A DNA stretch of 64,000 nucleotides from an uncultured Verrucomicrobiae bacterium (GTDB taxonomy: Bacteria > Verrucomicrobiota > Verrucomicrobiia > Opitutales > Opitutaceae). Positions 2 through 19,196 of the stretch are shown piece by piece. The stretch covers positions 1,169 through 65,168 of the forward strand of contig CAWDQK010000002.1 in the NCBI GenBank assembly GCA_963804395.1, written 5' to 3'. A model generated the notes under the pieces. The model ran no database searches. It was not told the DNA's origin and saw only the letters and a program-made list of their open reading frames with translations. Position 1 is the first letter of the stretch, and every line of letters begins with the position of its first letter. The translations under genes were made by a program, and so were the position numbers.

Positions 2-853
<852 letters not shown>

Positions 854-915
854 GACGTGCCTTCACGCGATTGGCTGTCGCGCCGCTGCCGCGAACCGGC
901 GGGTCGAATTGACCC

Positions 916-1190: not shown

Positions 1191-1238
1191 ATTAGCTGGT
1201 GTCCGAACGAAGATCCCAGTCAGCCCGATTCCAGTTCC

Positions 1239-2174: not shown

Positions 2175-2214
2175 ACCAGGCAAACGGGACCGCACACCTC
2201 GTCCGCCGCTCAAG

Positions 2215-3391
2215 ATGCGAACAGCAATCATACTCTGTCTTGCCCTGCTTACTTCGCCGGCCATTCTTCGTGCCGGGTCCGGTTTCGACACGATCGCCGT
2301 CGCGGAGCAGACGGTGCCGGGTGCCAGGATCAATTCTCCTGCGCCAGGGCATCCCGCTTACTATGTCGCCTATGATGGCGGCTATATCGAAGCCGGAGCG
2401 GTCATCGGGGGGCTGAAACCGCCGGCCGGCGCCGCGATCGGGCGGGCGCTGCGCTCCGCCCTTGGAGACGCCGGATATGAAGCGGCTTCGGCTCAAACCG
2501 TCCCCTCGCTGGTCCTGGTCTATCATTGGGGCTCCATTCGCCTCAACTACGGTGGCCAAACCGACTCCTTTCCCAATCTGGATGCCCGGCTGTCGTTGGT
2601 CGCGCCGGCGAGGATGGTCCGCCAGGCCGAGGAGTTCGTGCTGCACGGGCATGACGCAAATGTCGGCTACGTTGCAAGTGATCTGCAGTTCGACCCTGGA
2701 GTTCGCCCATGGTGCCCGTTACTTTGTGATCGTCTCGGCCTACGATTTTTCGGCTCTCACGCGGCACAACGTAATGCTGCTATGGCGCGTCAGGCTGAGC
2801 ACGCCGGAGAACAGCGGACCGATGGATGAGGCCCTGCTCGCGCTGGTCGGCAGTTGCAGTCCGTACTTGGGACGCAACTTCGACGACCGGCAGCGAATCT
2901 CAGCGTTGTTGCCCGCCCAGGATCTGGCGGGCCGGATCGGGGAGGGGGACGGGGCGGCGCTGCCGGTTCCGGACGCCACCGGACGGCTGGATGCGGGATT
3001 GATCAGCGACCTGATGCACCAGGAGCATGCGTTGTTCTCGGGCGAGCCATTTAGCGGGAACCTGGATTCCCATCCCCTCCTGCCGCCGGCGCTGGCCGAA
3101 CGCATTGCGGCCTACCGGCAGGAGAAGACCAAGTTGCAGGCGATCCTGGCGGAGAAGATCAAATCTCAGGCGCCCGGGGCGGACACCCGCCGCGCGATCG
3201 ACGCATTCAACTCCGAATACTCCGGGCGCATCCTGGCGCTCGGCCAGATGAGGGAACGCATCCGCAGCGCACTCGCGCAACTTCCGGCCGCGGAATCGCC
3301 GCCGGCCGAAGGACAGCCGCTCGACGCCTTGCTGCGCGAATTCGCGATCGATGTCCGGCATCTGGAACGCCCCCCGGCGGACACCCCCTGA
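2215..3391 (+). CDS. secreted hypothetical protein, paralog C; reading frame switches near nt 2690-2700
   Basis: Signal peptide MRTAIILCLALLTSPAILRA at 2215. Family motif SLVLVYHWG in frame 1, then ARYFVIVSAYDF..LLWRVRLS in frame 2 (ORF 2462-3391). Junction lies at gcagttcgaccctggagttcgccc. Confidence 0.5.
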
Positions 3392-3393
3392 CG

Positions 3394-4797
3394 ATGCCGG
3401 GCGGCGGACCGCCCGCCCGGATGTTTCGCCGCTCACTCCGCAACCGAATGCACCCACCAATCAAGCGCCCCGCGCTGCCGATGCTGCTCGCCGGCGCGCT
3501 CTTGGTGGGGATTTTTGCGGCGTTGGTGGTCGACTTTCGCGCCACGCTGCGGGAGCAGATCAGACAGACAATCATCAACCGCAATGCGGCCGTGCTCCGG
3601 CCGGTGGCCCTGCGGCAGTTGATGCAACGCGAGAACAGCCCCGGCGATCCGGCCAGCCTGCTCGCGGCCGTCCTGGAGAGCGTTCAGCAGGAGGACATGC
3701 TCGCCGTGGTGATTTTTGATGCGCAGGGCCGCACGCTACAGTTTGCTCCGCATTCGCTGCTTTTCGCCGAGCTGCCGCTGGATGATTACCTTCGGCTGCT
3801 CCAAGGCGATCCGATCAGCCGTTTTCATCCGGACTTCCCGCTCGATCGCTATTTTTCCGGCGTTGGCCCGTCGCCGACCGCCCGTTCAACGCCCGTGCTG
3901 GAAGTGCTGCTGCCGCTGCATGGCCGGGATGCCGACAGGAATCTGGGTTTTGCCCAGTATTACATCGACGGCCGTCCGCTGGCCGAGGAACTCTCAGCTA
4001 TCGACCGGCGCATCAACCGTCAGACAGCCGCCACTCTTTGCATCGGTGCCGCGCTGATCATTGCCGTCGTGACGGTCGCGTATTTCCGCCTGCGCCGGGC
4101 GCACGACCGGTTGGTGAAGGCCAATTTCGAACTCACCCTTTCCGCCAAGGCCTCCGCCCTCGGACAGATTTCCTCGCATTTGATTCACGGCTTGCAGGGC
4201 TCCGTCGCCGGTTTGCGGGCCGTCGTGGCTGGCCGCGACCCGGCGGTCGCAGATGCTGCCGACTGGGAGGCTGCCGCCGGATACACGGACCGGATGCAGG
4301 AGATGATTCATGAAGCCGTGGCCCTGTTGGGCGACTCCGCGTCAAGCGAGACGCACGAACTCACCGGGCAGGAGATCGCGAGCCTCATCCGTGAGCGCAG
4401 CGCGGCGGCGGCGGCGCAGAAGGGAGTCATCTTCACGGTTAACGGCCGTTTCGATTGCCCGCTCGACAGTCATCGCGGCGGGCTGCTTTCCCTTATCACC
4501 AGCAATCTTGTCCAGAACGCGATCGAAGCGACCGACGCGGGCCGGAATGTCGTCGTGAAGCTGTGCAGCGGAGATGACAGCGCGTCCATCATCGTTTCCG
4601 ACGAAGGCCACGGCATCGCCGAGGAATTGCGCGCCCATCTCTTCGAGCCCGGTCGAACCGGCCGCCCGGGCGGGTCAGGTTTGGGTCTGGCCATCAGCCG
4701 GTTGCTCGCGCGGCAGATTGGAGCGACCCTGACGCTCGAATCGACGGGAGCCGAGGGAACCACGTTTTGCGTGAAGTTGCCGCTGGTCTACACCTGA
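3394..4797 (+). CDS. sensor histidine kinase with periplasmic sensor domain
   Basis: TM1 LLAGALLVGIFAALVV, ~190-aa extracytoplasmic segment, TM2 LCIGAALIIAVVTVAYF, H-box ISSHLIHGLQGS, HATPase_c N-box NLVQNAIEA, G1 DEGHGI, G2 GSGLGLAIS. The true start may be an internal Met (3421 or later). Confidence 0.8.
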   Translation: MPGGGPPARMFRRSLRNRMHPPIKRPALPMLLAGALLVGIFAALVVDFRATLREQIRQTIINRNAAVLRPVALRQLMQRENSPGDPASLLAAVLESVQQEDMLAVVIFDAQGRTLQFAPHSLLFAELPLDDYLRLLQGDPISRFHPDFPLDRYFSGVGPSPTARSTPVLEVLLPLHGRDADRNLGFAQYYIDGRPLAEELSAIDRRINRQTAATLCIGAALIIAVVTVAYFRLRRAHDRLVKANFELTLSAKASALGQISSHLIHGLQGSVAGLRAVVAGRDPAVADAADWEAAAGYTDRMQEMIHEAVALLGDSASSETHELTGQEIASLIRERSAAAAAQKGVIFTVNGRFDCPLDSHRGGLLSLITSNLVQNAIEATDAGRNVVVKLCSGDDSASIIVSDEGHGIAEELRAHLFEPGRTGRPGGSGLGLAISRLLARQIGATLTLESTGAEGTTFCVKLPLVYT

Positions 4798-5063: not shown

Positions 5064-6101
5064 TCAAGCATCCGCCAGCTGCCGAAACCCAAGCTGATCG
5101 CCGAGGGCGAGGCATTCTGCGGCCGGGCGGACGCTCTGGGAACAGGTTGGGTGATAAAGCGAAGCGGCGGCAGCGCAGACTCCAAGCTTGAGGCTCCGCT
5201 GCATCGTCCAGAATTCGTGGCAGCCGTAGAGAACGCCGGCGGCAAACGCATCGCCCGCACCGGCGAGTCCGGCGATGTCGCCTGCGGGAACATCTACGCT
5301 GGACTGCCAGATCACTCCGCCGCCCGCGGAGCTGGCGCATGCGCCTTCGGGAAAATGGATCAGCGCCCATTCATGCACGCCAAGCCCGACCAGCATCTTG
5401 GCGGCCCGTTCAACCGTGCGGCGATCGAGTTCCATGCCACGCCGGAGGGGAAAGCCGGTGAGTTTCTCGGCTTCAAAGTCATTGGCAAACAGCAAATCGA
5501 CCTCCGGCAGCACCGGCGCGACGACGGTGAGAAAGCGGCCGCTGTTGTCGCTGACGCAATCCATCGACGTCGCCAGGCCGGCCGCTCGCGCCTGCGCGAA
5601 GACCCGGGCCAGGCGCGGGAGGCCGTCAACTCCGGGAGCGTCAAGGGCGTCAAGGAGCAGCGCGTATCCCAGGTGAAAGCGCCGGGCACGCGTGCGGAGA
5701 AAGTCGAAATGTTCCGGCGCGAGGAGCGCGTTCGCGCCGCGCTGGTGAAAAAAGGTGCGGCGACCGGTGGACTTCACTGTCATGACATCCGTGTAGGACG
5801 TGGCGGCGTCCGCCGTGACCGCGAGTTGCGCGGTGCCGATGTGATGGGCGCGGCAGTCGTCGCGGATCAGCCGGCCGCCGTCGTCGTCGCCCACCAAACC
5901 GACGCCTTCGAGCGGAAACGGCGCGCCGAGCCGGGCGAGGTCCTTGAGGACGTTGTACGGCGAGCCGCCATTGCCCCACGACTCACTGAGAATGTTGGCG
6001 AGCGAGTCCTCCGGTGGCCACGCGTCGATGACCTTTACGTGGTCGATGAGCCAGTTGCCGCCGGCGAGAAGGCCGCGGCGCGTTGGATCGATGGCAGTCA
6101 T
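5064..6101 (-). CDS. PfkB-family carbohydrate kinase (ribokinase-like)
   Basis: 345 aa. C-terminal PfkB signature GAGDAFAAGVLYG. N-terminal region resembles ribokinase-fold kinases. Confidence 0.85.
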   Translation of the reverse strand: MTAIDPTRRGLLAGGNWLIDHVKVIDAWPPEDSLANILSESWGNGGSPYNVLKDLARLGAPFPLEGVGLVGDDDGGRLIRDDCRAHHIGTAQLAVTADAATSYTDVMTVKSTGRRTFFHQRGANALLAPEHFDFLRTRARRFHLGYALLLDALDAPGVDGLPRLARVFAQARAAGLATSMDCVSDNSGRFLTVVAPVLPEVDLLFANDFEAEKLTGFPLRRGMELDRRTVERAAKMLVGLGVHEWALIHFPEGACASSAGGGVIWQSSVDVPAGDIAGLAGAGDAFAAGVLYGCHEFWTMQRSLKLGVCAAAASLYHPTCSQSVRPAAECLALGDQLGFRQLADA

Positions 6102-6670
6102 GGAGAGACCAGCTTCACCGCTGCAGGCTCGTCTGCCTCGACGCCGGGGAAGCGGCCGACATCGGGGTTCAGGAAGAGATTGTCGTGGAGGTCGTCGTTG
6201 GCGGTGGAAACCTCACCGATGACGCATTCGGCGCTGGAAGGGAAGAACTCGTGCCACACGCCCGGGACCAGCGTGACTCGCGAGCCGGCGGCAAGGACGA
6301 ACGGTTCTCCGGAACGGACTGTCGTCAGCTCGCCATCGACGGGCACCGCGAACGTGGGGGCGAGTTGGGCCACTGTCGTCGGTTTCGCGGGCCAGAGCCT
6401 GAGCGTAAGTTCGCCCGCGCGGCAGATGATGTCCTCCTTCTTGTTGGCGTGGCAGTGGCAGACCGTGGTCTGGCCCCGCGTCGCCCACATCAGTTTCTCG
6501 CAATACTCCGGCTCCGTCGCGAGGTTGACCAATACGGAACCGTAATGCTCGAAATCGCCGAGGCCAAAGTCGGTGATGTCCCACTTTGGTCTTGGCGGCA
6601 GGGTCCAGCCATTTCGTGCGAAACAGGCGGTGGCGGCACGGAAGGCGGAGTTGATAACGGATTGTTTCAT
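6098..6670 (-). CDS. cupin-type sugar isomerase (D-lyxose/D-mannose ketol-isomerase-like)
   Basis: 190 aa. Cupin metal motif CHCHANKKEDIICRAGE plus second His motif PGVWHEF. Size and motifs fit the D-lyxose isomerase cupin family. Family assignment is from memory, not a search. Confidence 0.45.
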   Translation of the reverse strand: MKQSVINSAFRAATACFARNGWTLPPRPKWDITDFGLGDFEHYGSVLVNLATEPEYCEKLMWATRGQTTVCHCHANKKEDIICRAGELTLRLWPAKPTTVAQLAPTFAVPVDGELTTVRSGEPFVLAAGSRVTLVPGVWHEFFPSSAECVIGEVSTANDDLHDNLFLNPDVGRFPGVEADEPAAVKLVSP

Positions 6671-6676
6671 GACAAT

Positions 6677-7768
6677 TTAGCGTCGGGCGCGGGAAGGCAT
6701 GGCGGTGGGCTGCAAGTCCGCACTGAGCGGCCGGTGGGGGCGAATGCGGAGTCGCCGCAGCGTCGCGTGATAGGCGCGGACCGCCTCGGCCGGCTTGATT
6801 TCACCGTCGGCGATCCGCCGCAAAAACTCGATGAACGTCACCGGATGTTCGGAGAGATTGATCTTTCGGCCGAAAAGCGCCGCCCAAGCGCCATGCTGCT
6901 GGGCGTCGTGGATGAGTTGGAACGCGTCAAGGGTGGTTCCAGCGCTGCCGCCGAGGATTCCGACGATCAGACTTGGATCGTAGGTGACCAACTCTTCGAG
7001 CGGGCCCGGCCCATGGTAGGGAATCTTCAGGAAAATCGGCCGCCCCACCGAGGGCACGCCGGCGAGCGCGCGCACGATGTGGTCGTTGAGAAATGCCCCG
7101 ATCCGGCGGGCGGGAATGCCGGTGGCGACATTCGGATTGAACACTTCGAGGAGATAGCGGAATTGCTTGGCTTCCGCCTCCTGGCGAAAGGCGGCGAACT
7201 CTTCGAGCGTCCGGTGGTCCGCGTCGAGGTTGTTCGTAAAGGTGATTGAATACAGCCCGAGGTCCGCCCCGGTGGCCGGTCGCGTGCAATCCGCCGTCGT
7301 CTGGCCGTATTTGATCTGTTCGATCGACGCACTGCGGAACGGTCGGGATGGCTGGGTGTGGTATTTCCCGCCCCGGACCAGCCAGATGTCGGTTGTGTCG
7401 TTGGCCCGGCCCGCGGGTGTGATCGGGGAGTGCTCGAACAGGCGCTCGCGCATGGCAAGCTGCTCGATGTTCGAGGCGGACAGCAGAACGATGTCCACGA
7501 GACCTTGCGCCACGACGTCGCGGATCTGGGCACGGTAATCCTCCAGTGTCTTCCAGCAACCACCCGGGACCTGGCGGAGCCGCGGCCGCTGCTCTCCCGG
7601 GCCGGGCGCGGTCAGGCCAAGCGCCAGGTCGGCGTCCTTGGCGTCGGCAATGATGAAGTCACTCCGCGTCGCCTGTCCGGCGCGGATGCGGGCCAGCTTT
7701 TCGTCGAGACGTTTCGGTGCGGACATTGGTTTGGGTGACGGATGAGGAGAAGGACGGTGGGGTGCCAT
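6677..7768 (-). CDS. hypothetical protein, possibly a TIM-barrel class I aldolase (LacD/DeoC-like)
   Basis: 363-aa ORF, translationally adjacent to the kinase and isomerase. Assignment is tentative and rests on context plus the IIADAKDAD and FLKIPY segments. Confidence 0.4.
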   Translation of the reverse strand: MAPHRPSPHPSPKPMSAPKRLDEKLARIRAGQATRSDFIIADAKDADLALGLTAPGPGEQRPRLRQVPGGCWKTLEDYRAQIRDVVAQGLVDIVLLSASNIEQLAMRERLFEHSPITPAGRANDTTDIWLVRGGKYHTQPSRPFRSASIEQIKYGQTTADCTRPATGADLGLYSITFTNNLDADHRTLEEFAAFRQEAEAKQFRYLLEVFNPNVATGIPARRIGAFLNDHIVRALAGVPSVGRPIFLKIPYHGPGPLEELVTYDPSLIVGILGGSAGTTLDAFQLIHDAQQHGAWAALFGRKINLSEHPVTFIEFLRRIADGEIKPAEAVRAYHATLRRLRIRPHRPLSADLQPTAMPSRARR

Positions 7769-7877: not shown

Positions 7878-7908
7878 GGATCAATGTCAACTAATAGATG
7901 ACATTTCG
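7878..7908. repeat. 31-bp AT-rich palindromic element GGATCAATGTCAACTAATAGATGACATTTCG, copy 1
   Basis: Exact reverse-complement copy at 37944-37974. Internal 7-bp inverted arms AATGTCA/TGACATT around a 9-bp AT-rich core. Supplies the last 7 codons (VEMSSIS) and the stop of the GH2 gene. Confidence 0.8.
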
Positions 7909-10136
7909 ACCCGGGCAGGGGCGCCCGGTGGTTCCTCATCCGCCGGAGCAAGCGGCATTGTGTATTCGGAATCCCATTCCGGGCGTCCCTCGACACGCAG
8001 GCGCAGGGTGAATCGATCGGCGTTGGCGGGGTGGGTCAGGCGCCAGTGCAAAACTGGTCCCCGCACGTGGCGGTCGGAAACGGCTTCCGGGTGCTCCCAG
8101 GTCAAGACGGTCGTTTCGAGGTCAGCCAGGACGATGGCCGCGGCGATGCGGCCGGCGGGAATGGTTTCATTCGAGTCGTTCAGGAGCCAGAGCTCAGCCG
8201 CGAAATCTTCCCCCTCCGTCCAGGAGAATTTCGGGATGCGGGCGCTGGCCATGACCGGCCGGCAGGCTGCGGCTACCGCGTGATAGGCCGGTTTCGGCTC
8301 GGCGGGCCAGTTGACGATGCTGTTGTTGGCAGCGGATGGCCAAGGCTCGTTGAAACACCAGTTGAGGGCCATCGAGCACCCGGGCTTTTGCCGACGCGCC
8401 TCTTCGAAAATCACCTTGTACCCCTCGGCTTGCAGCCATTGACCCTGCGCGACCGCTGCTTCCAGGCCGGCGGGCTCGCCGAAATAGTGTCGCTGAACGT
8501 CGAGGAAAAGCCAGGACGTGGGTTCCATCGACCATGCGCCGAGGCCGTGGTGGACCTGCCAGGACGATCCCGGCTGTGGAGGCCAAAGCTCGGACTCGGG
8601 GATGAATTTCTTGAGGTAATCCACCGGCGAAGGGCCCGGACAGCCGAACTCCGAGTAGGCCGTGCCGCTGGCCGCCGCGAAGATCTGGTGGACTTCGCGT
8701 CCACGCTCGTCGCGGAACCGGTAGTCGCCATGCCTCATGCCGTCCAGGGGCGCCGTCGGAATGAACGGCGTGGCGGGATCGAGATCGAGGCAGTTACGGT
8801 TCAGAATCCGCAACGCGAGCGACTGGTCGGTCATGCGCGACCATGAATTGAACAGCTCGTTGCCGCCGCACCAGATTGCCAGGCACGGATGACGCCGAAG
8901 GCGGCGGATGATCGACCGCGATTCTGCCTCAAGGACCCGCAGGTAGTCCGGATCATCGGCGTAGAGATTGCACGCGAGAGGAAACTCCTGCCAGACCAAC
9001 AGTCCCATTTCATCGCACAGATCGAAGAACCCCTCCTTGTTCACGATCCCGCCGCCCCAGGAGCGGATGAGGTTGAGGTGGGCGTCGCGGATGAGCCCGA
9101 GCAGCGGCCGGTAGGTTGCGGTGTTGATTGTGCCAGGAAAAATGTCGGGAGGCACCCAATTGGTTCCTCGTGCGAAAATCGGCCGGCCGTTGATTTCGAT
9201 CGTGATCGGCGGATGATTGCGCGACTTCGGAAAACTCGCCGGCAGATCCCACGCTCCTTCATGCATCACCAGTTTCACCTGGCGAAATCCAACACGTTCA
9301 ACCCGCTGGTTGACAGGCTTGCCCGACGGATCCAGAAGCTCGAATGTCGCCCGATAGAGCGGCTGGAGCCCATGGTCCTGCGGCCACCAGAGCTGCGGGT
9401 GTGCGAGTTTCGCCACGTCCCGACCTTTGCCTCCGGCCAGGTCGCTCTGGCCACTGAGCACCGCGGCCCCCGAAGGATTCGAAAGCGTCCAACGCCAGCT
9501 CAGACCGTCCGCCGCTGCGGAAGCGGAAACCGCCAACTCCAAATCCGCGCTTCGCAGCGACTGATCCAGGCGATAGGTGACGCCGCATTCCAGAAAATGC
9601 GCCGATGGCCTGACCTCCAGGCAGGTGTCCTGCCAGATGCCCAGCGGAATCAGGCGAGGATGCCAGTCCCATCCATAGGCGACCGCCGGCTTCACGCTCA
9701 GGCGGGCCTGGCTCGGATCGTCCCGTGGCGACGGGGCCATTGGCGCTGGCCAGAGGCGTATTTCCAGAAGGCCGCCCGATTGCGCCCGATCCGTGAGATC
9801 GATTTCAAAGGGCGTGAACATGCCCTCCTGTTCATGCACAATCTGGTCGTTCCAGACGACGGCGAACCGATAGTCAACCCCGCCACAAACGAGAAAAAGT
9901 CGCCCGCTGCCGGCGTTGAAGGAGCCGCCAACCCGGGCGCGATAGGTCCAGTAGACGTCTTCCATCCAGCGATAGGACGCGCAATTGGCGCCGTGCCAAT
10001 AGGGCGGCCAACCCTCTGCCCGCGCCCAGTCGAGCTGCACGGCCCCGGGCACCGCGGCGGGCACCCAACGTGCCGGTCGCGCTTCGGCCGACGGAGCGTG
10101 GCCCACTTCCCAATCGAAATCGATGCGGCGGATCAT
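7887..10136 (-). CDS. glycoside hydrolase family 2 (beta-mannosidase/beta-galactosidase-like)
   Basis: 749 aa. GH2 TIM-barrel segment NLIRSWGGGIVNKEGFFDLCDEMGLLVWQEFPLACN, paralogous to the same segment in 13469-16099. No signal peptide. Confidence 0.8.
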   Translation of the reverse strand: MIRRIDFDWEVGHAPSAEARPARWVPAAVPGAVQLDWARAEGWPPYWHGANCASYRWMEDVYWTYRARVGGSFNAGSGRLFLVCGGVDYRFAVVWNDQIVHEQEGMFTPFEIDLTDRAQSGGLLEIRLWPAPMAPSPRDDPSQARLSVKPAVAYGWDWHPRLIPLGIWQDTCLEVRPSAHFLECGVTYRLDQSLRSADLELAVSASAAADGLSWRWTLSNPSGAAVLSGQSDLAGGKGRDVAKLAHPQLWWPQDHGLQPLYRATFELLDPSGKPVNQRVERVGFRQVKLVMHEGAWDLPASFPKSRNHPPITIEINGRPIFARGTNWVPPDIFPGTINTATYRPLLGLIRDAHLNLIRSWGGGIVNKEGFFDLCDEMGLLVWQEFPLACNLYADDPDYLRVLEAESRSIIRRLRRHPCLAIWCGGNELFNSWSRMTDQSLALRILNRNCLDLDPATPFIPTAPLDGMRHGDYRFRDERGREVHQIFAAASGTAYSEFGCPGPSPVDYLKKFIPESELWPPQPGSSWQVHHGLGAWSMEPTSWLFLDVQRHYFGEPAGLEAAVAQGQWLQAEGYKVIFEEARRQKPGCSMALNWCFNEPWPSAANNSIVNWPAEPKPAYHAVAAACRPVMASARIPKFSWTEGEDFAAELWLLNDSNETIPAGRIAAAIVLADLETTVLTWEHPEAVSDRHVRGPVLHWRLTHPANADRFTLRLRVEGRPEWDSEYTMPLAPADEEPPGAPARVEMSSIS

Positions 10137-10185: not shown

Positions 10186-10237
10186 CTGTAGCGGAGCCGC
10201 GTCCGGCTCCGGCGGCGCGGAACGCCGCGCCGCTACG
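10186..10237. repeat. GC-rich hairpin repeat, family 3 (core GGCGGCGCGGAACGCCGCGCCGC nested in CTGTAGCGG..CCGCTACG)
   Basis: 23-nt core identical to 19174-19196. Sits just downstream of the minus-strand operon ending near 10291. Confidence 0.7.
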
Positions 10238-10400
10238 ACCCATCGCAGGCAAGCTCGATACTGCAATTTGCATAGTTACCACCAAGAGGGTCATCGTTCC
10301 GGTGTGGAGATGCGGAACGGCGCGGCGGCGTCGGTGGATTGCGCAAGGGCACCGCCAGCCACGGCTGAGAGAAGCAATCCGACGGCAATGGCTGTGGATT

Positions 10401-11882
10401 TCATGGCTGGTTGGCTTCAGCGTGGGCGGGCACAGCGCTCCTGGCCAGGTTGTCCAGGAGTGAGAGTTTTTCTTTGGCGGACGGATCCGATGACTCCCAT
10501 AGGGCAAATTCGATCAACGTGCGGGCTCCAGAGACGTCTCCGGCACGCAGGTCCCATGAGACGCAATCGATGGCCAACTGCGAATTCCGCGGGAAGAATC
10601 GCGCGCCTTCGTTGAGGCACGCCCGTTCCGGCCCGGTCGGTCCGCGACCGAGGTGCTGCAACACCCTGGCCTCAAGCAGATAGGCGCCCTCGATGGGGGG
10701 CGGCTGCTTCAGCATGACCGAGAGCATTTCGAGGATGCCGGCGGCCTGTGCGTCGCTGAGGTTCCGGTTGAGGCCCGCGGGTTTTTCCAAAGCATCCTGC
10801 AACTGGAGCCGGGCGAGCGCCAGGCGGGCCATGGGTCGGGCGGCGACGGCTTCCGGGTGTTCCGCAAGGATTGTGCATCCGCCTGCCGGGTCGCCGGTTT
10901 CGATCCGAAACAACGCCAGAGAGGCAAGAAGCTGCGGATCGCGCTGACCCAGGTCGTAGGCGCGTTGCAGCAACTTGCGGGTCTTCTCGATGTAAAGGGG
11001 CAGGGCGCTGGGGTAGTTCTCCTTGATGACGCGCAGGGTTCGCCGGGCCCATTCGCCCTTGATCCGGCGAATCTCCTCGGGGTTTGCCTCCCGCCATGCA
11101 ATCGGTGGGGGCGTGGCGATGGGCACGTAGGGTACCTGCAAGGGTTTTAGCACGGCCTGTGGCAGGTAGTCGCTGAGGGCGTCGCGAGCGTCGGCATAAT
11201 TCATCCCGAAACAGGACTGGAACAGGCCTTCGGTGACCGGCTGGGCCGCCGCCGCCGAAGCGAAGCGTCGGAGACGGTCCTTGCCTCCTGTGACGTTTTC
11301 TGAATAAGCCCATCGCACGAAGAGCTCGGATTGTGCCTCCCAGACACGCCGGTATTTCTCCGACTTGCTCACGGGAATTGACGGGACGAACACCTCGCGC
11401 ATGGGCAACAGCGGCCGGGGCGCCCCGGCATCGGAGCGCAGGACCATGGCTGCGCTCTCCGACAGCCAGGGGTCCGGCTCAAATCCGTCGATCTTGTTCT
11501 CGTGGGAAGATTTCGAGGCCGTCGAGACTATTGCCTGAAACAGAACACCCGGTTGGAGCTCCGGAAAGAGGCTCGATTCGTAGAGGCCGGAAATGCCCAC
11601 GCTGTACCACGCCGGCAGGGCGGGCGCACGCGATTCGAGCAGGAAGCGAAGGTAGGTGGGTGAACAGACGATCGGAGGGCCTTGCCTTCCCATGGATCGA
11701 TTCGTTCTCCACTGATAGTCTCTCAGAATCGCAAAGGTGTAGGTGGAGTCGGGATCCGACAAACGAAGGTCGAACATAGGCTCGAACCGACTGCGCTCGC
11801 TGGACCTAGCTGGAATCTGATAAAGTTCCTGCGCCATTTCCTTGTCTATTTTGGCCGTTAGCGATCGGGGAAAAAGGATCAA
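10401..11882 (-). CDS. hypothetical protein, 493 aa, helical repeat-like C-terminus
   Basis: Long ORF on minus strand with no signal peptide and no recognised domain. Its stop overlaps the start of a 37-codon signal-peptide micro-ORF (ATGA at 10401-10404). Confidence 0.55.
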   Translation of the reverse strand: MILFPRSLTAKIDKEMAQELYQIPARSSERSRFEPMFDLRLSDPDSTYTFAILRDYQWRTNRSMGRQGPPIVCSPTYLRFLLESRAPALPAWYSVGISGLYESSLFPELQPGVLFQAIVSTASKSSHENKIDGFEPDPWLSESAAMVLRSDAGAPRPLLPMREVFVPSIPVSKSEKYRRVWEAQSELFVRWAYSENVTGGKDRLRRFASAAAAQPVTEGLFQSCFGMNYADARDALSDYLPQAVLKPLQVPYVPIATPPPIAWREANPEEIRRIKGEWARRTLRVIKENYPSALPLYIEKTRKLLQRAYDLGQRDPQLLASLALFRIETGDPAGGCTILAEHPEAVAARPMARLALARLQLQDALEKPAGLNRNLSDAQAAGILEMLSVMLKQPPPIEGAYLLEARVLQHLGRGPTGPERACLNEGARFFPRNSQLAIDCVSWDLRAGDVSGARTLIEFALWESSDPSAKEKLSLLDNLARSAVPAHAEANQP

Positions 11883-12180
11883 GGTCGAACGGGAGCGCCG
11901 TTTTGAACAGGAATTCTTCCGGGATCAGCTGGTGGAGATAGACGAGATCGGTGCGGAGATCCTGGATGAACGCCTGGGTTTCATCCTCCTCGCCGGCAGA
12001 AAGGATCTCCAGACCGGAGCATTCACCATGAAGCCAGTGCGGGCCATCCAGGGGTTCGGCTTCAACCAGGAATGGAGGCAGCGCCACGACGTTCTCGGTC
12101 CGGGATTCCCCCGATCCCAGGAGGGGGGAAGATCCGGCCGGAATGCCCAGAAGCATCAGCCAGATACAGAATCGCCTCAT
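11806..12180 (-). CDS. small secreted hypothetical protein, 124 aa
   Basis: Reverse complement of 12151-12180 reads MRRFCIWLMLLGIPAGSS, so the ORF is on the minus strand although the supplied track labels it +. Signal peptide present. ATGA overlap with the stop of 12177-13460. Overlaps the 10401-11882 start by 77 nt in another frame, so the two may be one frameshifted gene. Confidence 0.4.
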   Translation of the reverse strand: MRRFCIWLMLLGIPAGSSPLLGSGESRTENVVALPPFLVEAEPLDGPHWLHGECSGLEILSAGEEDETQAFIQDLRTDLVYLHQLIPEEFLFKTALPFDLDPFSPIANGQNRQGNGAGTLSDSS

Positions 12181-13460
12181 GGGATGGCCTGTCTTTGGCC
12201 GATTTCGTAAAGCAGGTCGTCCGCCCGGTCGAAGACGAAATACCGGGCCGGGCCTGCACCGCCGGACGCGAGGAGGAGAAACCGGTGCCCGGCGGCGTCC
12301 GCCCCGAGAATGATGATCTGTCGGTCCGGCAGTTTTTCCTCGGCGAGTGCCTGGATCTCTGCGAGCGGCGGTTCAGCAGCGGATGCGCGGGAATCTTGGG
12401 CCGACGCGAGTCCGGCAGCCTTCGCCTCGGGTTCCGCACGCTTCCCGGCCAGGTTGAAACAGATCGGTTCAGTCGCTGACTGGGGAATCAGGACATGTCT
12501 CGCATCAGCCCACCTCAAGGGCGCGAACCCTGCTTGGAGACTTGGGATCTTCGCGACAGCCGGTCGTGTCACCCCGTCGACATTCACGATTACCAGCTTC
12601 GAGATTTGATTCTCCTTCTTCACATAGGCGACATGAGCGCCGTCGGGCGCCAGGGCGGCATGGCCCGGCTCCGGCTCAGGTGTGACGCCCAGGGATTTGA
12701 GTTCACCAATCGCGACATGACCCTCGGGAACCGGCTTGTGGGTCAGCCCAGGGCTGTCTTGTCCGAAGAAGCGGGAGGCATTCCCAACCATGGTCGCCAA
12801 TTGCTTGTCGAACTCGTTTCCTTGTTCGCGAATGCTGAAGCGTGTCTGCCAGAGCAGCCTGCTCTCCCCCTGCTTCAGTTTCATCTGGAAGTCGTAGGCC
12901 AGGAGGACGACAAAATAGCGGCGACTTTGCAGTTCAGAGTCCGACAGCGAACCATAACCCAGGAGTTTCGCTGTTTGCTGGATTCTCTCGGTATCCTTTT
13001 GGACCTCATCGTTGGGCAGACGGCTGTTTTCGATAAGGTCCGGCGGACCCGCTTTCTCACCAGGCTCCGCAATGCTTAGTGAGGGGAACGGGTCATGATA
13101 GTCGGGTGCGAGCGTGATTCCCCAATAGACCACGATCAGGAGCTTGGTCGCGTTGTGATCGCGGGACGGAACATAGTTTTGGCGAGACAGCGCACCGGCG
13201 ATTTTTTGGGCGAGATCCACAAATGACAGCTTGTCGATGGTGGGGTCGGCAATGTCTCCGCCCAAAGATCCGCCTTTCAGGAGAGTATACGTTTCGGGTT
13301 GGAACGATCCGTCGGCGAGCTTGGTGCGGACGTAGCCGTTGCTCGTCTCCGAGAACACCGCCTCGAAGTCCTCCGCCAGCACCGGGCATTGCCAGCAAAG
13401 CGCCGCCCAAAATCCAACCAGCGCAAGCAACCAGCCGCGATTGGGAAGCCGCGTTCTCAT
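12177..13460 (-). CDS. secreted hypothetical protein, paralog B of the family at 1239-3391, with C-terminal beta-propeller-like extension
   Basis: 427 aa. Signal peptide MRTRLPNRGWLLALVGFWAALCWQCPVLA. Family motifs YVRTKLADGS, DPTIDKLSFVDLAQKIAGAL, YVPSRDHNATKLLIVVYWG, RYFVVLLAYDF..LLWQTRFSIR. Confidence 0.65.
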   Translation of the reverse strand: MRTRLPNRGWLLALVGFWAALCWQCPVLAEDFEAVFSETSNGYVRTKLADGSFQPETYTLLKGGSLGGDIADPTIDKLSFVDLAQKIAGALSRQNYVPSRDHNATKLLIVVYWGITLAPDYHDPFPSLSIAEPGEKAGPPDLIENSRLPNDEVQKDTERIQQTAKLLGYGSLSDSELQSRRYFVVLLAYDFQMKLKQGESRLLWQTRFSIREQGNEFDKQLATMVGNASRFFGQDSPGLTHKPVPEGHVAIGELKSLGVTPEPEPGHAALAPDGAHVAYVKKENQISKLVIVNVDGVTRPAVAKIPSLQAGFAPLRWADARHVLIPQSATEPICFNLAGKRAEPEAKAAGLASAQDSRASAAEPPLAEIQALAEEKLPDRQIIILGADAAGHRFLLLASGGAGPARYFVFDRADDLLYEIGQRQAIP

Positions 13461-13468: not shown

Positions 13469-16099
13469 CTATTGCGGATTGTTGCCGGAAGCCGGCGGCG
13501 GGCTCTGCAGGTCAGGCCCAAAGGCGTCCACGAGCGAGCGGATCGTCAGATTCTTCCGGACCTCGTCCAGGGAGGCCGCGCCTTTGAGCTGGATGTCAAC
13601 CGACTCTCCGGGCAGCAGGTCGAAATAGTTGTCCGAAGGCTCCACGTTCAGCTCCCCGAACGAAAGGCAGACGCTGCGGGCGAGCGCATCGGAGGCAACG
13701 CGCACGCGGCACGTGTCGCCCTCCTGAAAAACTTCGGTTGAGAGGTGGACCACGGGAATGCGGACCTCTTTCGTCGGCCGCAGATAAACGAGGTTGTGAG
13801 CGACGACGCGGCCTTCAACCGAAAGCTCCGCCACGACGAACGTCTTCGCTGTGTCCGTCCCGGCCGGGACCAGTTGCGCCAGTCCGGTTTGAACGGAGAC
13901 TTGGCTCGACAGCGCGGGAATCTGCACCGGCGCAGTCTTGTCGTGCAGAACGGTTCCGCTGAACGTCATCAGGCGCACGCGGAGCTGGCCGGCGGTGGGC
14001 TGCGTCCGGTCGGACACGACGTACACGGCCAGCTGATCGTTCTCGATGTGCGGCGACACGAGCATCGGGGCATAGAAACGCCGGGCGTAGTACTGCAGGG
14101 CCTTCCACCGGCCAGCGTAGTCGATGCTCGCCCAGGATGCCACCGGCCAGCAGTCATTCAGCTGCCAGAAGATCGAGCCCATGCAGCGCGGCCGCTCGCA
14201 CCGCAGATGCTCCGCGCCGACCTTGACGCCCTCCGCTTGCAGCACCTGGCTGACGTAAAGCAGCGAGGCAAGATCCTTCGGCTCGGGATAGTCGCGGAGC
14301 AGGTATTCGTGGATCAGCCCGTTGCCGATCGGACTCTTCTGGTGCGCGAGCATCACCGGCGTGAAGATCCCCGTGCGGTCGTCGGCCGCCGTGTAGGACT
14401 CGACGGTCCGCATTTCCGGGAAGGATTGAAACCCGTACTCCGAGACAAAACGGAAATGATGTTTCTCGTAGGAGGCAAACGGTTCCTTGCCGTGCCAGAT
14501 GCTCCAGTCGTGAATGTCGCCTGACTCGTAGGCGGGCGACGTTGGCTCGTAGTCGGCGCTGGGCGAGCTCGGCCAATACGGCGTCTCCGGGGAAAACCGG
14601 CTGACAGCCTGGCCGAGAATGCCGCTGGAGATTGTAATGTAGTCTTTCCACATCTGGAGGAAGACGGGGGCCTCGCGCGGATGGGACTTCTGGTTCCAAT
14701 CCATCGCTCCCTCCGTCTCGTTGTTGCCGCTCCACAGGACGATGCTCGGATGATCTCGCAGCCGCTTGATCTGATCCTCGGCTTCCTGGGCGACGTTCAA
14801 TTTGAATGGATAGGTGCCCGGTTGCATTTCATTGCCGAACATGAAGTCCTGCCAGACCATCAGTCCGAGTTCGTCGCAGAGGCCGTAGAACTCGTCCGTC
14901 TCGTAATAGCCGCCGCCCCAGTGGCGGATCATGTTCATGTTGGCCGTCCGGGCGGATTCGAGGATTCGGCGGTAGTCTGCCGTCGTCACGCGATTGGGAA
15001 AACTGTCAAAGGGGATCACGTCCGCGCCTTTGGCGAAGACCGGCACGCCATTGATCACGAACTCGAACGAGCGTCCCCATGCGTCAATGTCCCGGCGCAG
15101 CGCCGCGTTGCGCAGGCCCGTGCGAATCTTGCGCGTGTCCACGGGCTGCGTCCCAATCGCGACCACAGCTTCGAACGCGTACAGCGGCTGGTCGCCATAG
15201 CCGCTCGGGAACCAGAGCTTTGGCTCATTGATTTCGATGGGGAAATCCACGTGGTTGACGCCGGCATGGAGCGAAACCTTGCGTTGCAACTGCGCCGGGC
15301 GCCCGGCGTCCAGATATCGCAGAGTCACTTCCGCATCGGTGTTCGCCGACGCAGCAATTTCGACCTCGGCCGCGAGGTGCGCGACTGCCGCGGCCACGTC
15401 GCGCTGCCGGATATGCAAATCCGAGATCCGCGCCTCGTTCCAGGCTTCGAGCCGGAGCGGACGCCAGATGCCGCTGGTAACAAACGTCGGGCCCCAGTCC
15501 CAGCCGTACTCGTAGGCGGCCTTGCGGACATAGGTCTTGGCCTCGACGCCGGTCCGCGCGCGCCAGGGATCGGCGGCGGCCACCTTCTCCGCGGCCGAGC
15601 CGGGCGACGGGAAAACCACCAGCAGTTGGTTGGCGCCGGCTTTGAGCCACGGTTTCGCGTCCACCCGCCAGAGGCGGAACATGTTGTTCGCGGTGAGCAC
15701 CAGTTGGTCGTTCAGGTAGACTTCGCAGAACGCGTCCAGCCCTTCAAACACGAGCTCGATGTTCCGATGCTGCAGCAGTTCGGGCGTCGCGACGACGGTG
15801 GTGCGGTACTCCCAGGCGGCCTGGCTGATCCACTGCAGCTTGGCCTCGTTGTCGCGAAAAAACGGATCGGGAATCAGCCGGTGGCGCAGCAGATCGAGGT
15901 GCACATCCCCGGGCACCTTCGCCGGCAGCCAATCCGAGGCGACAGCGCCGGGTTGCGCGTCGCGCTGGCGGAATTCCCATCCCTGGTCCAGTGAGATGAC
16001 CTGTTTCTCCGACGTTTTCATCTGAGCGAAGGATTTTGAGACAGAACAACCGAGCGTGACGGTTGCGCAGAGCAGAAGAGGGAATGGGTGAGTTCTCAT
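13469..16099 (-). CDS. glycoside hydrolase family 2, beta-mannosidase-like, secreted
   Basis: Start taken at the internal Met (MRTHPFPLLLCATVTLGCSVSKSFAQ signal peptide). The upstream part of ORF 13469-16246 has no support. GH2 segment NMIRHWGGGYYETDEFYGLCDELGLMVWQDFMFGNE. Confidence 0.85.
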   Translation of the reverse strand: MRTHPFPLLLCATVTLGCSVSKSFAQMKTSEKQVISLDQGWEFRQRDAQPGAVASDWLPAKVPGDVHLDLLRHRLIPDPFFRDNEAKLQWISQAAWEYRTTVVATPELLQHRNIELVFEGLDAFCEVYLNDQLVLTANNMFRLWRVDAKPWLKAGANQLLVVFPSPGSAAEKVAAADPWRARTGVEAKTYVRKAAYEYGWDWGPTFVTSGIWRPLRLEAWNEARISDLHIRQRDVAAAVAHLAAEVEIAASANTDAEVTLRYLDAGRPAQLQRKVSLHAGVNHVDFPIEINEPKLWFPSGYGDQPLYAFEAVVAIGTQPVDTRKIRTGLRNAALRRDIDAWGRSFEFVINGVPVFAKGADVIPFDSFPNRVTTADYRRILESARTANMNMIRHWGGGYYETDEFYGLCDELGLMVWQDFMFGNEMQPGTYPFKLNVAQEAEDQIKRLRDHPSIVLWSGNNETEGAMDWNQKSHPREAPVFLQMWKDYITISSGILGQAVSRFSPETPYWPSSPSADYEPTSPAYESGDIHDWSIWHGKEPFASYEKHHFRFVSEYGFQSFPEMRTVESYTAADDRTGIFTPVMLAHQKSPIGNGLIHEYLLRDYPEPKDLASLLYVSQVLQAEGVKVGAEHLRCERPRCMGSIFWQLNDCWPVASWASIDYAGRWKALQYYARRFYAPMLVSPHIENDQLAVYVVSDRTQPTAGQLRVRLMTFSGTVLHDKTAPVQIPALSSQVSVQTGLAQLVPAGTDTAKTFVVAELSVEGRVVAHNLVYLRPTKEVRIPVVHLSTEVFQEGDTCRVRVASDALARSVCLSFGELNVEPSDNYFDLLPGESVDIQLKGAASLDEVRKNLTIRSLVDAFGPDLQSPPPASGNNPQ

Positions 16100-16251
16100 G
16101 TCTGTAGTAGTAGCTAGATCGAGGGGAAGCTCGCTTCTACGATGTGCATAGTACGAATTGGACTGCAACCAAGGGTGGAGGGCGCTGCGCCGGCCTTCGC
16201 CAAGGCTACGGCACGGCTGGCCGTCAGCGCCCTTTCGATTGGGCAACTGTT

Positions 16252-19173: not shown

Positions 19174-19196
19174 GGCGGCGCGGAACGCCGCGCCGC
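19174..19196. repeat. GC-rich hairpin repeat, family 3 (GGCGGCGCGGAACGCCGCGCCGC)
   Basis: Identical 23-nt core to 10211-10233. Lies just downstream of deoC on the minus strand. Confidence 0.7.

What the first reader, a model, noticed from the sequence alone, without database searches (positions are those of the whole stretch)
10291..13460. Translationally coupled minus-strand operon of hypothetical proteins embedded between two GH2 genes
Paralog B (13460-12177) is followed by a 124-aa signal-peptide protein (12180-11806), a 493-aa protein with no domain hits (11882-10401) and a 37-codon signal-peptide micro-ORF (10404-10291, MKSTAIAVGLLLSAVAGGALAQSTDAAAPFRISTPER). Junctions are ATGA start/stop overlaps at 12177-12180 and 10401-10404, the classic signature of coupled translation. 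The GH2 mannosidase-like gene ends 9 nt upstream and another GH2 begins downstream. The family 3 hairpin at 10186-10237 follows. The 124-aa and 493-aa ORFs overlap by 77 nt in different frames and may be one secreted ~590-aa protein split by an indel.
Basis: seen in the sequence. Interest (0 to 1): 0.6.

Follow-up and report, generated by a model that had tools for sequence, protein, structure and literature searches.

The report
Two-gene periplasmic cassette with TonB-box-like protein
The "four-gene operon" is a conserved pair of overlapping genes for secreted proteins of unknown function, one broken here by a single extra base; the larger protein carries the docking motif of TonB-powered outer-membrane transporters but has no membrane barrel, and the 37-codon mini-gene is unproven.

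Summary
The ORFs, both ATGA overlaps and the 77-nt overlap are real. The 124-aa and 493-aa ORFs are one 592-aa gene, split by an extra T at 11886-11889. About 90 homologues are single ~590-aa proteins. At least two (probably four) other genes in the window are also split, so an assembly error is the likeliest cause.

The core is a two-gene cassette, 427 aa then 592 aa. It recurs in Opitutaceae with the ATGA overlap kept (12 of 13 loci) and mostly unrelated flanks. Neither protein matches Pfam or NCBIfam.

- **Gene 1:** a PelC/LptE-like alpha/beta domain plus a reduced beta-propeller.
- **Gene 2:** a signal peptide, a near-universal V-x-L-P-P-F-x-V-E strand, an alpha/beta-helical body and a TPR domain.

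The strand matches the pre-plug strand, taken here to be the TonB box, of Opitutaceae TonB-dependent receptors. Distant branches of the family add an STN signalling domain and follow ECF sigma/FecR genes, or pair with inactive S9-peptidase-like proteins. Rare fusions add TonB_C domains or the gene-1 propeller.

Best reading: a barrel-less periplasmic protein that may dock on TonB, working with the partner encoded just upstream. This is inferred, not shown. The micro-ORF is kept only in a 92%-identical relative.

The parts
12177..13460 (-). Gene 1 (427 aa): a secreted protein with an N-terminal signal peptide and no conserved lipobox cysteine. Residues ~33-245 (13364-12726) form a PelC/LptE/CsgG-like alpha/beta domain. 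Residues ~268-420 (12659-12201) form a reduced beta-propeller.
10401..12180 (-). Gene 2: one 592-aa gene once the extra base is removed. It is currently read as a 124-aa ORF (12180-11806) plus a 493-aa ORF (11882-10401).
   Evidence: 91 homologues of ~590 aa cover 98-100% of the fused query, with none above any Pfam threshold. The alignment runs straight across the junction. The AF2 model of the fused protein has pLDDT 81. A profile search finds 1520 representative clusters.
11886..11889 (-). Frameshift site. The minus strand reads CCG-TTCG-ACC, four bases where relatives have three. This is one extra T.
   Evidence: L003, L001, L004 and L008 read CCG-ACG/ACT-AC(T/C/G). The 92%-identical contig L043 reads CCA-TCG-ACC. 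Codon registers are checked. Codon-usage score of the 124-aa frame drops from 0.45 before the site to -0.49 after it.
12061..12090 (-). TonB-box-like strand V31-V-A-L-P-P-F-L-V-E40. It lies 7-8 residues after the predicted signal-peptide cleavage site.
   Evidence: P35, P36 and E40 are invariant. The motif is near-universal in 226 family members. It is in register with the pre-plug strand of 110 Opitutaceae TonB-dependent receptors (V-v-[LM]-[ST]-[AP]-F-E-V). hhalign's only hit between the two profiles is this motif, P 0.028.
10425..11087 (-). C-terminal TPR domain of gene 2 (residues ~365-585).
12177..12180 (-). ATGA overlap: the gene 1 stop (TGA) overlaps the gene 2 start (ATG).
   Evidence: Seen directly. 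The same ATGA is present in 12 of 13 type I loci and in the type II locus L018.
10291..10404 (-). 37-codon micro-ORF whose ATG overlaps the gene 2 stop (ATGA at 10404-10401). It is signal-peptide-like. Its status is unresolved and it is probably not a conserved gene.
   Evidence: ORF. No homologue in related loci. Not in the protein collection or the public record. Codon score is 0.13 per codon, between coding (0.41) and off-frame (-0.43). The start and first 21 codons are kept in the 92%-identical L043, with 2 synonymous and 5 conservative non-synonymous changes.
10188..10236 (-). GC-rich double hairpin between the cassette and the downstream GH2. It looks like a REP-type repeat and has no T tract.
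   Evidence: Fold. One exact copy of the whole element. The core GCGGCGCGGAACGCCGCGCCGC recurs at 19175-19196. No Rfam match.
13469..16246 (-). Upstream GH2 (beta-mannosidase type). It is 8 nt from gene 1 and possibly co-transcribed. It is not part of the conserved cassette.
   Evidence: Pfam. The junction is confirmed in L034. No GH2 flanks the cassette in most other loci.
7887..10136 (-). Downstream GH2 (749 aa). It is context only.
   Evidence: Pfam.

Best explanation
**Shown**
- The region holds a conserved two-gene cassette of Opitutaceae (Verrucomicrobiota), not four genes.
- Gene 1 (427 aa) and gene 2 (592 aa) overlap by ATGA, and both begin with signal peptides.
- In this assembly gene 2 is split by one extra T at 11886-11889.
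- Gene 2 belongs to a large family with no Pfam or NCBIfam model (about 1500 clusters at 50% identity).
- Family members share one layout: signal peptide, a near-universal [VI]-x-[LM]-P-P-[FY]-x-V-E strand, an alpha/beta-plus-helical body, and a TPR domain.
- The gene just upstream comes in three types. Type I is the gene-1 type (PelC-like domain plus reduced propeller). Type II is a larger S9-peptidase-like protein (propeller plus hydrolase domain) that lacks the GxSxG nucleophile motif. Type III is a FecR anti-sigma factor preceded by an ECF sigma factor.
- In the FecR branch the family protein gains an STN signalling domain directly before the strand.

**Inferred**
- The frameshift is most likely an assembly error (about 0.7). 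At least two, probably four, other genes in the window are split in the same way.
- The N-terminal strand is the clade's TonB box. Gene 2 would then be a soluble, barrel-less counterpart of the N-terminal module of TonB-dependent transducers (about 0.5).
- Proposed mechanism: the TPR and alpha/beta body holds the partner encoded upstream. The exposed strand docks on the TonB C-terminal domain by beta-strand augmentation. The complex is thereby tethered to, pulled by or regulated by the TonB-ExbBD motor.
- In the STN/FecR branch the output would be ECF-sigma activation.
- For the window's own STN-less branch, the output and the ligand are unknown.
For: **Gene structure**
- homologues of ~590 aa cover the fused query end to end.
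- the window has 4 nt where relatives have 3.

**Indel-rich assembly**
- NAGLU is split, with PF05089 positions 1-224 and 244-335 in two ORFs.
- GH116 is split, with PF12215 positions 1-152 and 218-310 in two ORFs.
- The BN-like gene at 2212-3391 appears split.
- The MFS transporter ORF stops at profile position 335 of 452.

**Cassette conservation**
- The pair is adjacent in L001 and L003-L014, with mostly unrelated flanks.
- ATGA is kept in 12 of 13 type I loci.

**Physical link between the two proteins**
- P0070 and P0072 fuse the gene-2 family to a C-terminal domain matching the gene-1 propeller (E 5e-10 and 9e-5, in order).

**TonB links**
- The motif is in the same register as the pre-plug strand of 110 TonB-dependent receptors. 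These were collected with a plug-plus-barrel query only.
- hhalign's only hit between the two profiles is this strand.
- STN (PF07660) scores 33.3, 31.3 and 30.5 bits against a cut-off of 28.4 in three of the six FecR-branch proteins scanned; the other three fall just below it (24.7-27.8 bits). STN sits directly before the strand.
- FecR and ECF sigma lie upstream, and a plug-domain receptor sits divergently downstream in L021, L026 and L029.
- P0028 and P0035 fuse the family to four TonB_C domains.
- A short gene-1 paralogue (P0192) lies next to a 127-aa TonB_C protein.

**Folds and precedent**
- Folds.
- A barrel-less periplasmic cell-surface-signalling receptor is already known: VreA of P. 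aeruginosa (PMC2729926).
- The current model of signalling domain, TonB box and TonB pulling on FecR is in PMC12036975.
Against: - No experiment or complex prediction shows that the strand binds TonB.
- The TonB box of Opitutaceae receptors is assigned only by position, as the conserved strand before the plug.
- The profile-profile match is short and weak (P 0.028, probability 1.8%).
- The 110 receptors used for comparison belong to one clade (at least 52% identical).
- The window's own protein has no STN domain and no sigma, anti-sigma, TonB or receptor gene nearby.
- The frameshift could not be checked against reads. The only close relative covering the site (L043) is itself full of 1-nt indels.
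- The site is a T to TT change, not a long homopolymer.
Confidence: 0.6

Rival explanations
1. The frameshift is real. Gene 2 is a pseudogene in this organism and the cassette is decaying, perhaps along with other genes in this sugar-utilisation island.
For: The public record of this contig carries the same break, with 124-aa and 458-aa calls. The site is not a long homopolymer. Several other genes in the window are also split. The 92%-identical L043 also has broken frames in this gene.
Against: Apart from the single base, both halves keep 67-71% identity to full-length homologues with no further damage. Codon usage is normal on both sides in the correct frames. At least two, probably four to five, split but otherwise well-conserved genes in 64 kb is what an indel-prone assembly looks like, not gene decay. 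L043's breaks are at different positions and are too dense (6 in 2 kb) to be biological.
Confidence: 0.22
2. The 37-codon micro-ORF is a genuine third cistron. It would be translationally coupled to gene 2 and encode a small secreted peptide.
For: There is an ATGA overlap and a textbook signal-peptide pattern with A-L-A|Q. Its codon score of 0.13 is higher than 96% of off-frame windows. The start, the overlap and 21 codons are intact in L043.
Against: No counterpart exists after the gene-2 homologue in any other locus, including those at 67-70% protein identity. It is not called in the public record. Against L043 there are 2 synonymous and 5 non-synonymous changes, so there is no sign of purifying selection. 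My rough estimate is that an ATG on a TGA stop plus about 37 open codons is not rare by chance in 63%-GC DNA. Alanine/leucine/glycine-rich ORFs also look signal-peptide-like.
Confidence: 0.13
3. The conserved N-terminal strand is not a TonB box. The cassette would be a TonB-independent periplasmic scaffold or chaperone pair, for example a glycan- or envelope-related accessory co-expressed with the neighbouring GH2. The motif would serve folding, sorting or partner binding.
For: In the AF2 model the strand is a beta-strand (E30-34) of moderate confidence that may pack on the protein's own alpha/beta domain. The window and L003 both have a GH2 just upstream. The motif match to receptors is weak statistically. 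The gene-1 fold family (PelC, LptE, CsgG) works without TonB (mechanism from general knowledge).
Against: The strand lies where a TonB box lies in transducers: straight after the signal peptide, or straight after STN in the FecR branch. There are independent genomic links to TonB_C domains and to FecR, ECF sigma and receptor clusters. GH neighbours are absent from most loci.
Confidence: 0.3
4. The break is a programmed +1 ribosomal frameshift.
For: There are two long frames with a short overlap, and both parts are conserved.
Against: None of about 90 homologues, nor the 92%-identical relative, has the extra base. The site has no slippery or stop-codon context.
Confidence: 0.02

Closest known systems
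VreA (PA0674), the barrel-less receptor of the PUMA3 cell-surface-signalling system of Pseudomonas aeruginosa (PMC2729926)
   Same: VreA is a mostly soluble periplasmic protein with the N-terminal signalling (STN) domain of TonB-dependent transducers but no plug or barrel. Its gene lies beside an ECF sigma and anti-sigma pair. The FecR-linked branch of the gene-2 family has this logic: ECF sigma, FecR, then an STN-bearing soluble protein. VreA's second domain resembles TolA/TonB C-terminal domains, and rare gene-2 family members are fused to TonB_C domains.
   Different: The window's protein has no STN domain and no sigma or anti-sigma neighbours. Its body is an alpha/beta-helical domain plus TPR (~550 aa), not a ~110-aa TolA-like domain. 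It has a clear strand in the TonB-box position, whereas VreA's predicted TonB box lies inside a helix. Sequence homology to VreA was not tested.
TonB-dependent transducers (FecA, FpvA type): signalling domain, TonB box, plug, 22-strand barrel (PMC12036975, PMC2729926)
   Same: The order of N-terminal elements is the same: signal peptide, optional STN, then a short conserved strand. The strand matches that of Opitutaceae receptors in register. The genetic link to FecR and ECF sigma in one branch is also shared.
   Different: There is no Plug (PF07715) and no barrel (PF00593). The predicted fold is soluble alpha/beta plus TPR.
PelC, the ring-forming lipoprotein of the PelBC exopolysaccharide exporter, with fold relatives LptE, CsgG, TraT and DUF4136
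   Different: Gene 1 has no conserved lipobox cysteine and no pel, lpt or csg genes nearby. It also carries an extra propeller remnant. Sequence identity is 5-10%. Ring formation is untested.
TolB and S9 (prolyl-oligopeptidase family) beta-propellers
   Same: The gene 1 C-domain carries a PD40/TolB blade motif (E 1.5e-5). It is homologous to the first and last blades of the S9-like partner proteins in the type II loci.
   Different: Only about 2-3 blades remain. There is no hydrolase domain. The full-length S9-like partners also lack the GxSxG nucleophile motif; L018 reads MGEGFGG. There is no tol-pal context.
Periplasmic TPR adaptors such as CpoB/YbgF, NlpI, LbcA and BepA (general knowledge)
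   Different: No conserved histidines or HExxH motif, so it is not a metalloprotease. It is not a lipoprotein. The BepA match has a TM-score of only 0.20-0.26. The TonB-box-like strand has no counterpart in those proteins.

Membership tests
TonB-dependent transducer / receptor | Plug domain (PF07715) | tested here: not met
   No Pfam hit in the fused protein or in 16 homologues.
TonB-dependent transducer / receptor | 22-strand outer-membrane beta-barrel (PF00593) | tested here: not met
   No Pfam hit. The AF2 model is alpha/beta plus helical/TPR.
TonB-dependent transducer / receptor | TonB box: a short strand near the mature N-terminus that binds the TonB C-terminal domain | tested here: inconclusive
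   The position and the register V-x-[LM]-x-P-F-x-V match 110 Opitutaceae receptors. hhalign's only hit is this strand but it is weak (P 0.028). Binding was not testable.
TonB-dependent transducer / receptor | N-terminal STN signalling domain (PF07660) that contacts FecR | tested here: not met
   Absent from the window protein. Found in the six FecR-branch relatives scanned, three above the Pfam cut-off (30.5-33.3 bits against 28.4) and three just below (24.7-27.8 bits). 18 of 226 fetched family members carry it.
VreA-like barrel-less cell-surface-signalling receptor | STN domain in a soluble periplasmic protein encoded next to an ECF sigma and anti-sigma pair | tested here: not met
   The window locus has no STN, sigma or FecR gene. 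The feature is met only by distant family members, such as L020, L021, L026-L029 and L032.
TPR proteins | Tandem helix-turn-helix repeats forming a TPR superhelix | tested here: met
PelC / LptE / CsgG-type outer-membrane lipoproteins | Shared alpha/beta fold | tested here: met
PelC / LptE / CsgG-type outer-membrane lipoproteins | Lipobox cysteine (lipoprotein anchoring) | tested here: not met
   No conserved cysteine at the end of the signal peptide across 29 homologues. The pattern is A-x-A|E, as for signal peptidase I.
PelC / LptE / CsgG-type outer-membrane lipoproteins | Oligomeric ring, and an operon with the cognate barrel or secretion genes | tested here: not met
   No pel, lpt or csg genes appear in the loci whose neighbours were examined. 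Ring formation is not testable with these tools.
TolB | Six-bladed PD40 propeller with an N-terminal alpha/beta domain, in a tol-pal operon | tested here: not met
   One PD40-like blade motif (E 1.5e-5). Only about 2-3 blades are modelled. The NCBIfam TolB model scores 10.9 bits against a cut-off of 343. There is no tol-pal context.
Peptidase S9 | Alpha/beta-hydrolase domain with the GxSxG nucleophile | tested here: not met
   Gene 1 has no hydrolase domain. The S9-like partners of type II loci match PF00326 but lack GxSxG.
Translationally coupled gene pair | Start codon overlapping the upstream stop (ATGA), conserved among homologous loci | tested here: met
   Positions 12180-12177 in the window. 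Kept in 12 of 13 type I loci and in L018. Actual coupling of translation is not testable here.

The most novel reading that the evidence does not exclude
Opitutales carry a large, unnamed class of soluble periplasmic proteins, about 1500 clusters at 50% identity. These proteins bear a working TonB box, and in one branch also a FecR-binding STN domain, but have no membrane barrel. TonB-ExbBD would act on these barrel-less clients and on the partner encoded upstream (a PelC-like/propeller protein, a dead S9 peptidase or FecR). That would extend TonB-powered mechanics from outer-membrane transport to periplasmic complexes, and to a split form of cell-surface signalling in which the receptor and the signalling module are separate proteins.
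Probability: 0.3. Interest if true: 0.8.

Novelty: new variant of a known kind. Interest (0 to 1): 0.5.

Why it matters
TonB boxes are known on outer-membrane transporters and on toxins that hijack them, not on housekeeping soluble proteins. The only described barrel-less cell-surface-signalling receptor is VreA of Pseudomonas.

A large Verrucomicrobial family combines a TonB-box-like strand, an optional STN domain, a TPR body and a tightly coupled partner gene. It would offer a tractable way to ask what else the TonB motor pulls on, and how signalling can be separated from transport. Cultured Opitutaceae encode receptors of this clade, for example Horticoccus luteus and Oleiharenicola lentus, so they are candidate hosts for such experiments, although the cassette itself was seen here only in MAGs and one unnamed 6.5-Mb genome (P0078).

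For annotation, the practical results are these:
- The 124-aa, 458-aa and 493-aa calls should be merged into one 592-aa gene.
- This contig contains several single-base indels.
- The 37-codon ORF should not be annotated without direct evidence.

Tried and rejected
**Searches that gave nothing useful**
- Pfam and NCBIfam scans of both proteins and of 17 and 29 homologues found nothing above threshold.
- PDB sequence profiles gave only generic TPR and one TolB blade.
- The afdb50 library was unavailable.
- The promoter/terminator scan found no more sites than shuffled sequence.
- Rfam found nothing.
- Literature searches for a Verrucomicrobial TonB box, or for this family, found nothing specific.

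**Attempts to verify the frameshift independently**
- The public-record protein P0001 could not be located on a contig.
- The Logan contig L034 stops 41 nt after gene 1.
- The metagenome contig L043 covers the site and has 3 nt there. It carries six other 1-nt indels, so it is weak evidence.

**Micro-ORF**
- tblastn against all fetched loci gave no hit.
- The exact-sequence look-up found nothing.

**Ideas rejected**
- Programmed frameshift: not conserved in any relative.
- Gene 2 as a metalloprotease of the BepA or gluzincin type: no conserved histidines or HExxH, and the BepA match has a low TM-score.
- Partner as an active S9 peptidase: the nucleophile motif is missing.
- Cassette as an integral part of a glycoside-hydrolase locus: the flanks are not conserved.
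- Gene 1 as a lipoprotein: no lipobox.
- Hairpin as an intrinsic terminator: no T tract, and it is a repeated element.

Full report
**1. What is in the sequence**

On the minus strand of 10291-13460 the listed ORFs are all present: 13460-12177 (427 aa), 12180-11806 (124 aa), 11882-10401 (493 aa, TTG start) and 10404-10291 (37 aa). The two ATGA overlaps (12180-12177 and 10404-10401) and the 77-nt overlap of the 124-aa and 493-aa ORFs are as described.

A beta-mannosidase-type GH2 (16246-13469) stops 8 nt before the first ATG. A second GH2 (10136-7887) follows the region. The window is 63% G+C. It is a glycoside-hydrolase-rich stretch, with two GH2 genes plus GH31, GH20, GH89/NAGLU, GH116 and NagB/PIG-L.

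**2. The 124-aa and 493-aa ORFs are one gene**

A fusion of the two ORFs found 91 homologues. Most are 560-600 aa and cover 93-100% of the fused query. The best are 66-74% identical. The alignment runs straight through the junction. Homologues read ...TALPTTLILFPRS..., while the window gives TALP in the first frame and TLILFPRS in the second.

At the DNA level the window has CCG-TTCG-ACC where L003, L001, L004 and L008 have CCG-AC(G/T)-AC(T/C/G). A metagenome contig 92.4% identical to the window (L043) has CCA-TCG-ACC. So there is one extra T within 11886-11889. Removing it gives a 592-aa protein. Codon usage in the 124-aa frame collapses right after the site, from 0.45 to -0.49 per codon.

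The public record of this contig (94,905 bp) carries the same break and-aa and 458-aa products.

**3. Artefact or mutation**

I could not see reads. Circumstantial evidence favours an assembly indel. Other genes in the same 64 kb are split in the same way while remaining well conserved:

| Gene | Evidence of a split |
|---|---|
| NAGLU | PF05089 positions 1-224 in 54784-52586, positions 244-335 plus NAGLU_C in 52743-51592 |
| GH116 | PF12215 positions 1-152 in 46112-47236, positions 218-310 in 46689-48707 |
| Gene-1-like gene at 2212-3391 | Apparent change of reading frame (frame reading and weak tblastn only) |
| MFS sugar transporter at 55862-54702 | ORF stops at profile position 335 of 452 |

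A real pseudogene remains possible at about 0.2. A programmed frameshift is excluded because no relative has the extra base. L043 is not a clean witness, since it has six other 1-nt indels against the window.

**4. The conserved unit is a two-gene cassette**

The 427-aa protein has 225 hits, none with a Pfam domain. The full-length (~430 aa) forms sit on the same contigs as the 592-aa family.

In L001 and L003-L014 the 427-like gene lies directly upstream of the 592-like gene. The ATGA overlap is kept in 12 of 13 of these loci. L003 has an 8-nt spacer instead.

The flanks are otherwise unrelated. They include HDOD and a hybrid kinase, an alpha/beta hydrolase, PSCyt/DUF1501, BlaI/BlaR, a MacB-type permease, and in L003 a GH2 with a GH3. 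The GH2 sandwich is therefore local context.

All 26 species-representative genome loci found with the family pattern are Opitutaceae or Opitutales MAGs. A profile search counts 1520 representative clusters at E ≤ 1e-3, and 740 at E ≤ 1e-30.

**5. Gene 1 (427 aa)**

It has a signal peptide without a conserved lipobox cysteine. The AF2 model (pLDDT 73.7) has two domains.

- **Residues ~268-420:** a few propeller blades with a TolB/PD40 motif (E 1.5e-5).

**6. Gene 2 (592 aa)**

No histidine or other obviously catalytic residue is invariant. The sequence V31-V-A-L-P-P-F-L-V-E40 lies 7-8 residues after the predicted cleavage site. P35, P36 and E40 are invariant. Variants of the motif occur in essentially all full-length members fetched.

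**7. Three kinds of partner, and the TonB connection**

More distant family members (25-33% identity) keep the gene architecture but change the upstream gene.

- **Type II (L015, L017, L018, L023-L025).** The partner is an ~800-aa protein with a propeller and an S9-like hydrolase domain. The first and last blades of that propeller are homologous to the gene 1 C-domain. The GxSxG nucleophile motif is missing; L018 reads MGEGFGG. L018 again has a 4-nt overlap.
- **Type III (L020, L021, L026-L029, L032).** The upstream gene is a FecR-type anti-sigma factor (DUF4880, FecR, FecR_C). An ECF sigma factor precedes it. A plug-domain TonB-dependent receptor sits divergently downstream in L021, L026 and L029.

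In type III the family protein gains an N-terminal STN domain. It scores 33.3, 31.3 and 30.5 bits against a cut-off of 28.4 in three proteins, and just below the cut-off in three more. STN is followed directly by VVRLPPYTVEG. Signal peptide, STN and then a short strand is the N-terminal layout of TonB-dependent transducers, in which the strand is the TonB box (PMC2729926, PMC12036975).

I collected 120 homologues of the L026 receptor using only its plug and barrel as query. In the 110 that could be anchored, the strand before the plug reads V-v-v-[L83/M16]-[S/T]-[A49/P42]-F100-E-V99. The gene-2 family reads [VI]-v-[L68/M31]-P-P-[F83]-[L75]-V96-E95. The register is the same. hhalign between the two profiles returns this strand as its only hit, but weakly (P 0.028).

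Four further links point the same way:
- P0028 and P0035 fuse the family to four TonB_C domains.
- P0070 and P0072 fuse it to a gene-1-type propeller.
- A short gene-1 paralogue lies next to a 127-aa TonB_C protein, among receptor genes.
- 18 of 226 fetched members carry STN, including 17 of the 21 that are 631-730 aa long.

**8. How it most likely works**

*Shown.* The cassette, its coupling signature, secretion signals, fold classes, domain fusions and gene neighbourhoods.

*Inferred.* Gene 2 is a periplasmic adaptor. Its TPR and alpha/beta body holds the partner encoded upstream, as the fusion proteins suggest. Its exposed N-terminal strand docks on the TonB C-terminal domain by strand addition. 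The complex is then tethered to or pulled by TonB-ExbBD. In the FecR branch this would be a split version of cell-surface signalling. The signalling domain and TonB box sit on a soluble protein rather than on the receptor, as with VreA of P. aeruginosa (PMC2729926).

For the window's STN-less branch the output is unknown. None of the components examined shows catalytic motifs. I put the TonB-box reading at about 0.5. The main rival is a TonB-independent periplasmic scaffold, at about 0.3.

**9. The micro-ORF**

It looks like a signal peptide followed by 16 residues, and its ATG overlaps the gene 2 stop. Its codon score (0.13 per codon) lies between real genes (0.41 ± 0.34) and wrong frames (-0.43 ± 0.27).

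No related locus has a counterpart after the gene 2 homologue. The sequence is not in the protein collection.

In L043 the start and the first 21 codons are intact, with 2 synonymous and 5 conservative non-synonymous changes. At 92% identity that says little either way. I treat it as unproven, with about 0.13 that it is a real gene. It could also be the remnant of a lost gene's N-terminus.

**10. The hairpin**

The element at 10188-10236 is two GC-rich stem-loops inside an outer stem. It has no T tract and no Rfam match. Its core is repeated exactly at 19175-19196, in another intergenic gap. It looks like a REP-type repeat.

**11. Verdict**

There are two conserved, overlapping genes, one broken by a probable assembly error, plus an unsupported mini-ORF.

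The cassette belongs to a large family with no Pfam or NCBIfam model, so far seen only in Opitutales. I file it as a new variant of a known kind: barrel-less relatives of TonB-dependent transducers, with VreA as precedent. I do not file it as a member of any named family, because plug, barrel and (in this copy) STN were tested and are absent. Interest is moderate. The anatomy and family links are new and testable, but the function is inferred only from sequence, predicted folds and gene context.

Noticed in passing
window 98-4797 (+): This is a second locus with gene-1-type proteins. A sigma-54 activator fragment (98-853) is followed by the short paralogue (1239-2174, 311 aa). Next is a divergent paralogue (2212-3391) that appears split by a frameshift near 2700-2830. 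Last is a histidine kinase (3394-4797).
   Followed up: partly
window 51592-55862 (-) and 46112-48707 (+): Several well-conserved genes are split between frames. NAGLU is split between 54784-52586 and 52743-51592. GH116 is split between 46112-47236 and 46689-48707. The MFS sugar transporter ORF at 55862-54702 stops at profile position 335 of 452. The contig looks indel-rich, as in a long-read assembly.
   Followed up: partly
window 10188-10236 and 19175-19196: A GC-rich hairpin core (GCGGCGCGGAACGCCGCGCCGC) is repeated exactly in two intergenic gaps. At 10188-10236 it is part of a double hairpin closed by GTAGCG...CGCTAC. It has no Rfam match.
   Followed up: partly
L026:2018-8794; also L020, L021, L027, L028, L029, L032: These are cell-surface-signalling-like clusters in which the STN domain is not on the TonB-dependent receptor. 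It sits instead on a soluble gene-2-family protein that follows ECF sigma and FecR. The neighbouring receptor has a plug and the conserved pre-plug strand but no STN.
   Followed up: partly
L018:1419-3902; also L015, L017, L023, L025: The upstream partners of the type II branch match Peptidase_S9 but lack the GxSxG nucleophile motif (L018 reads MGEGFGG). They are probably inactive peptidase homologues.
   Followed up: partly
L038-L040, about 6001-7468: A short gene-1 paralogue (P0192, 305 aa) is directly followed by a 127-aa protein consisting of a TonB_C domain. The neighbourhood also holds another TonB_C protein and two plug-domain receptors.
   Followed up: no
P0227, P0266, P0293, P0305 and other ~1000-1035-aa receptors: Many Opitutaceae TonB-dependent receptors of this clade carry an N-terminal coiled-coil-like extension before the pre-plug strand, rather than an STN domain. 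An example is LKRLQQENEALRKQNAELQQRFAEMEARL.
   Followed up: no
L043 (Ga0182022_1303089), whole contig: This public metagenome contig is 92.4% identical to window 12312-10340. It differs by seven single-base indels in 2 kb. Six of them break its own reading frames, so it is error-rich.
   Followed up: yes
window 44606-45776: A tRNA-Glu(CTC) gene at 44606-44680 is followed by a DUF2971 gene (44925-45776). This may mark the edge of an inserted element.
   Followed up: no
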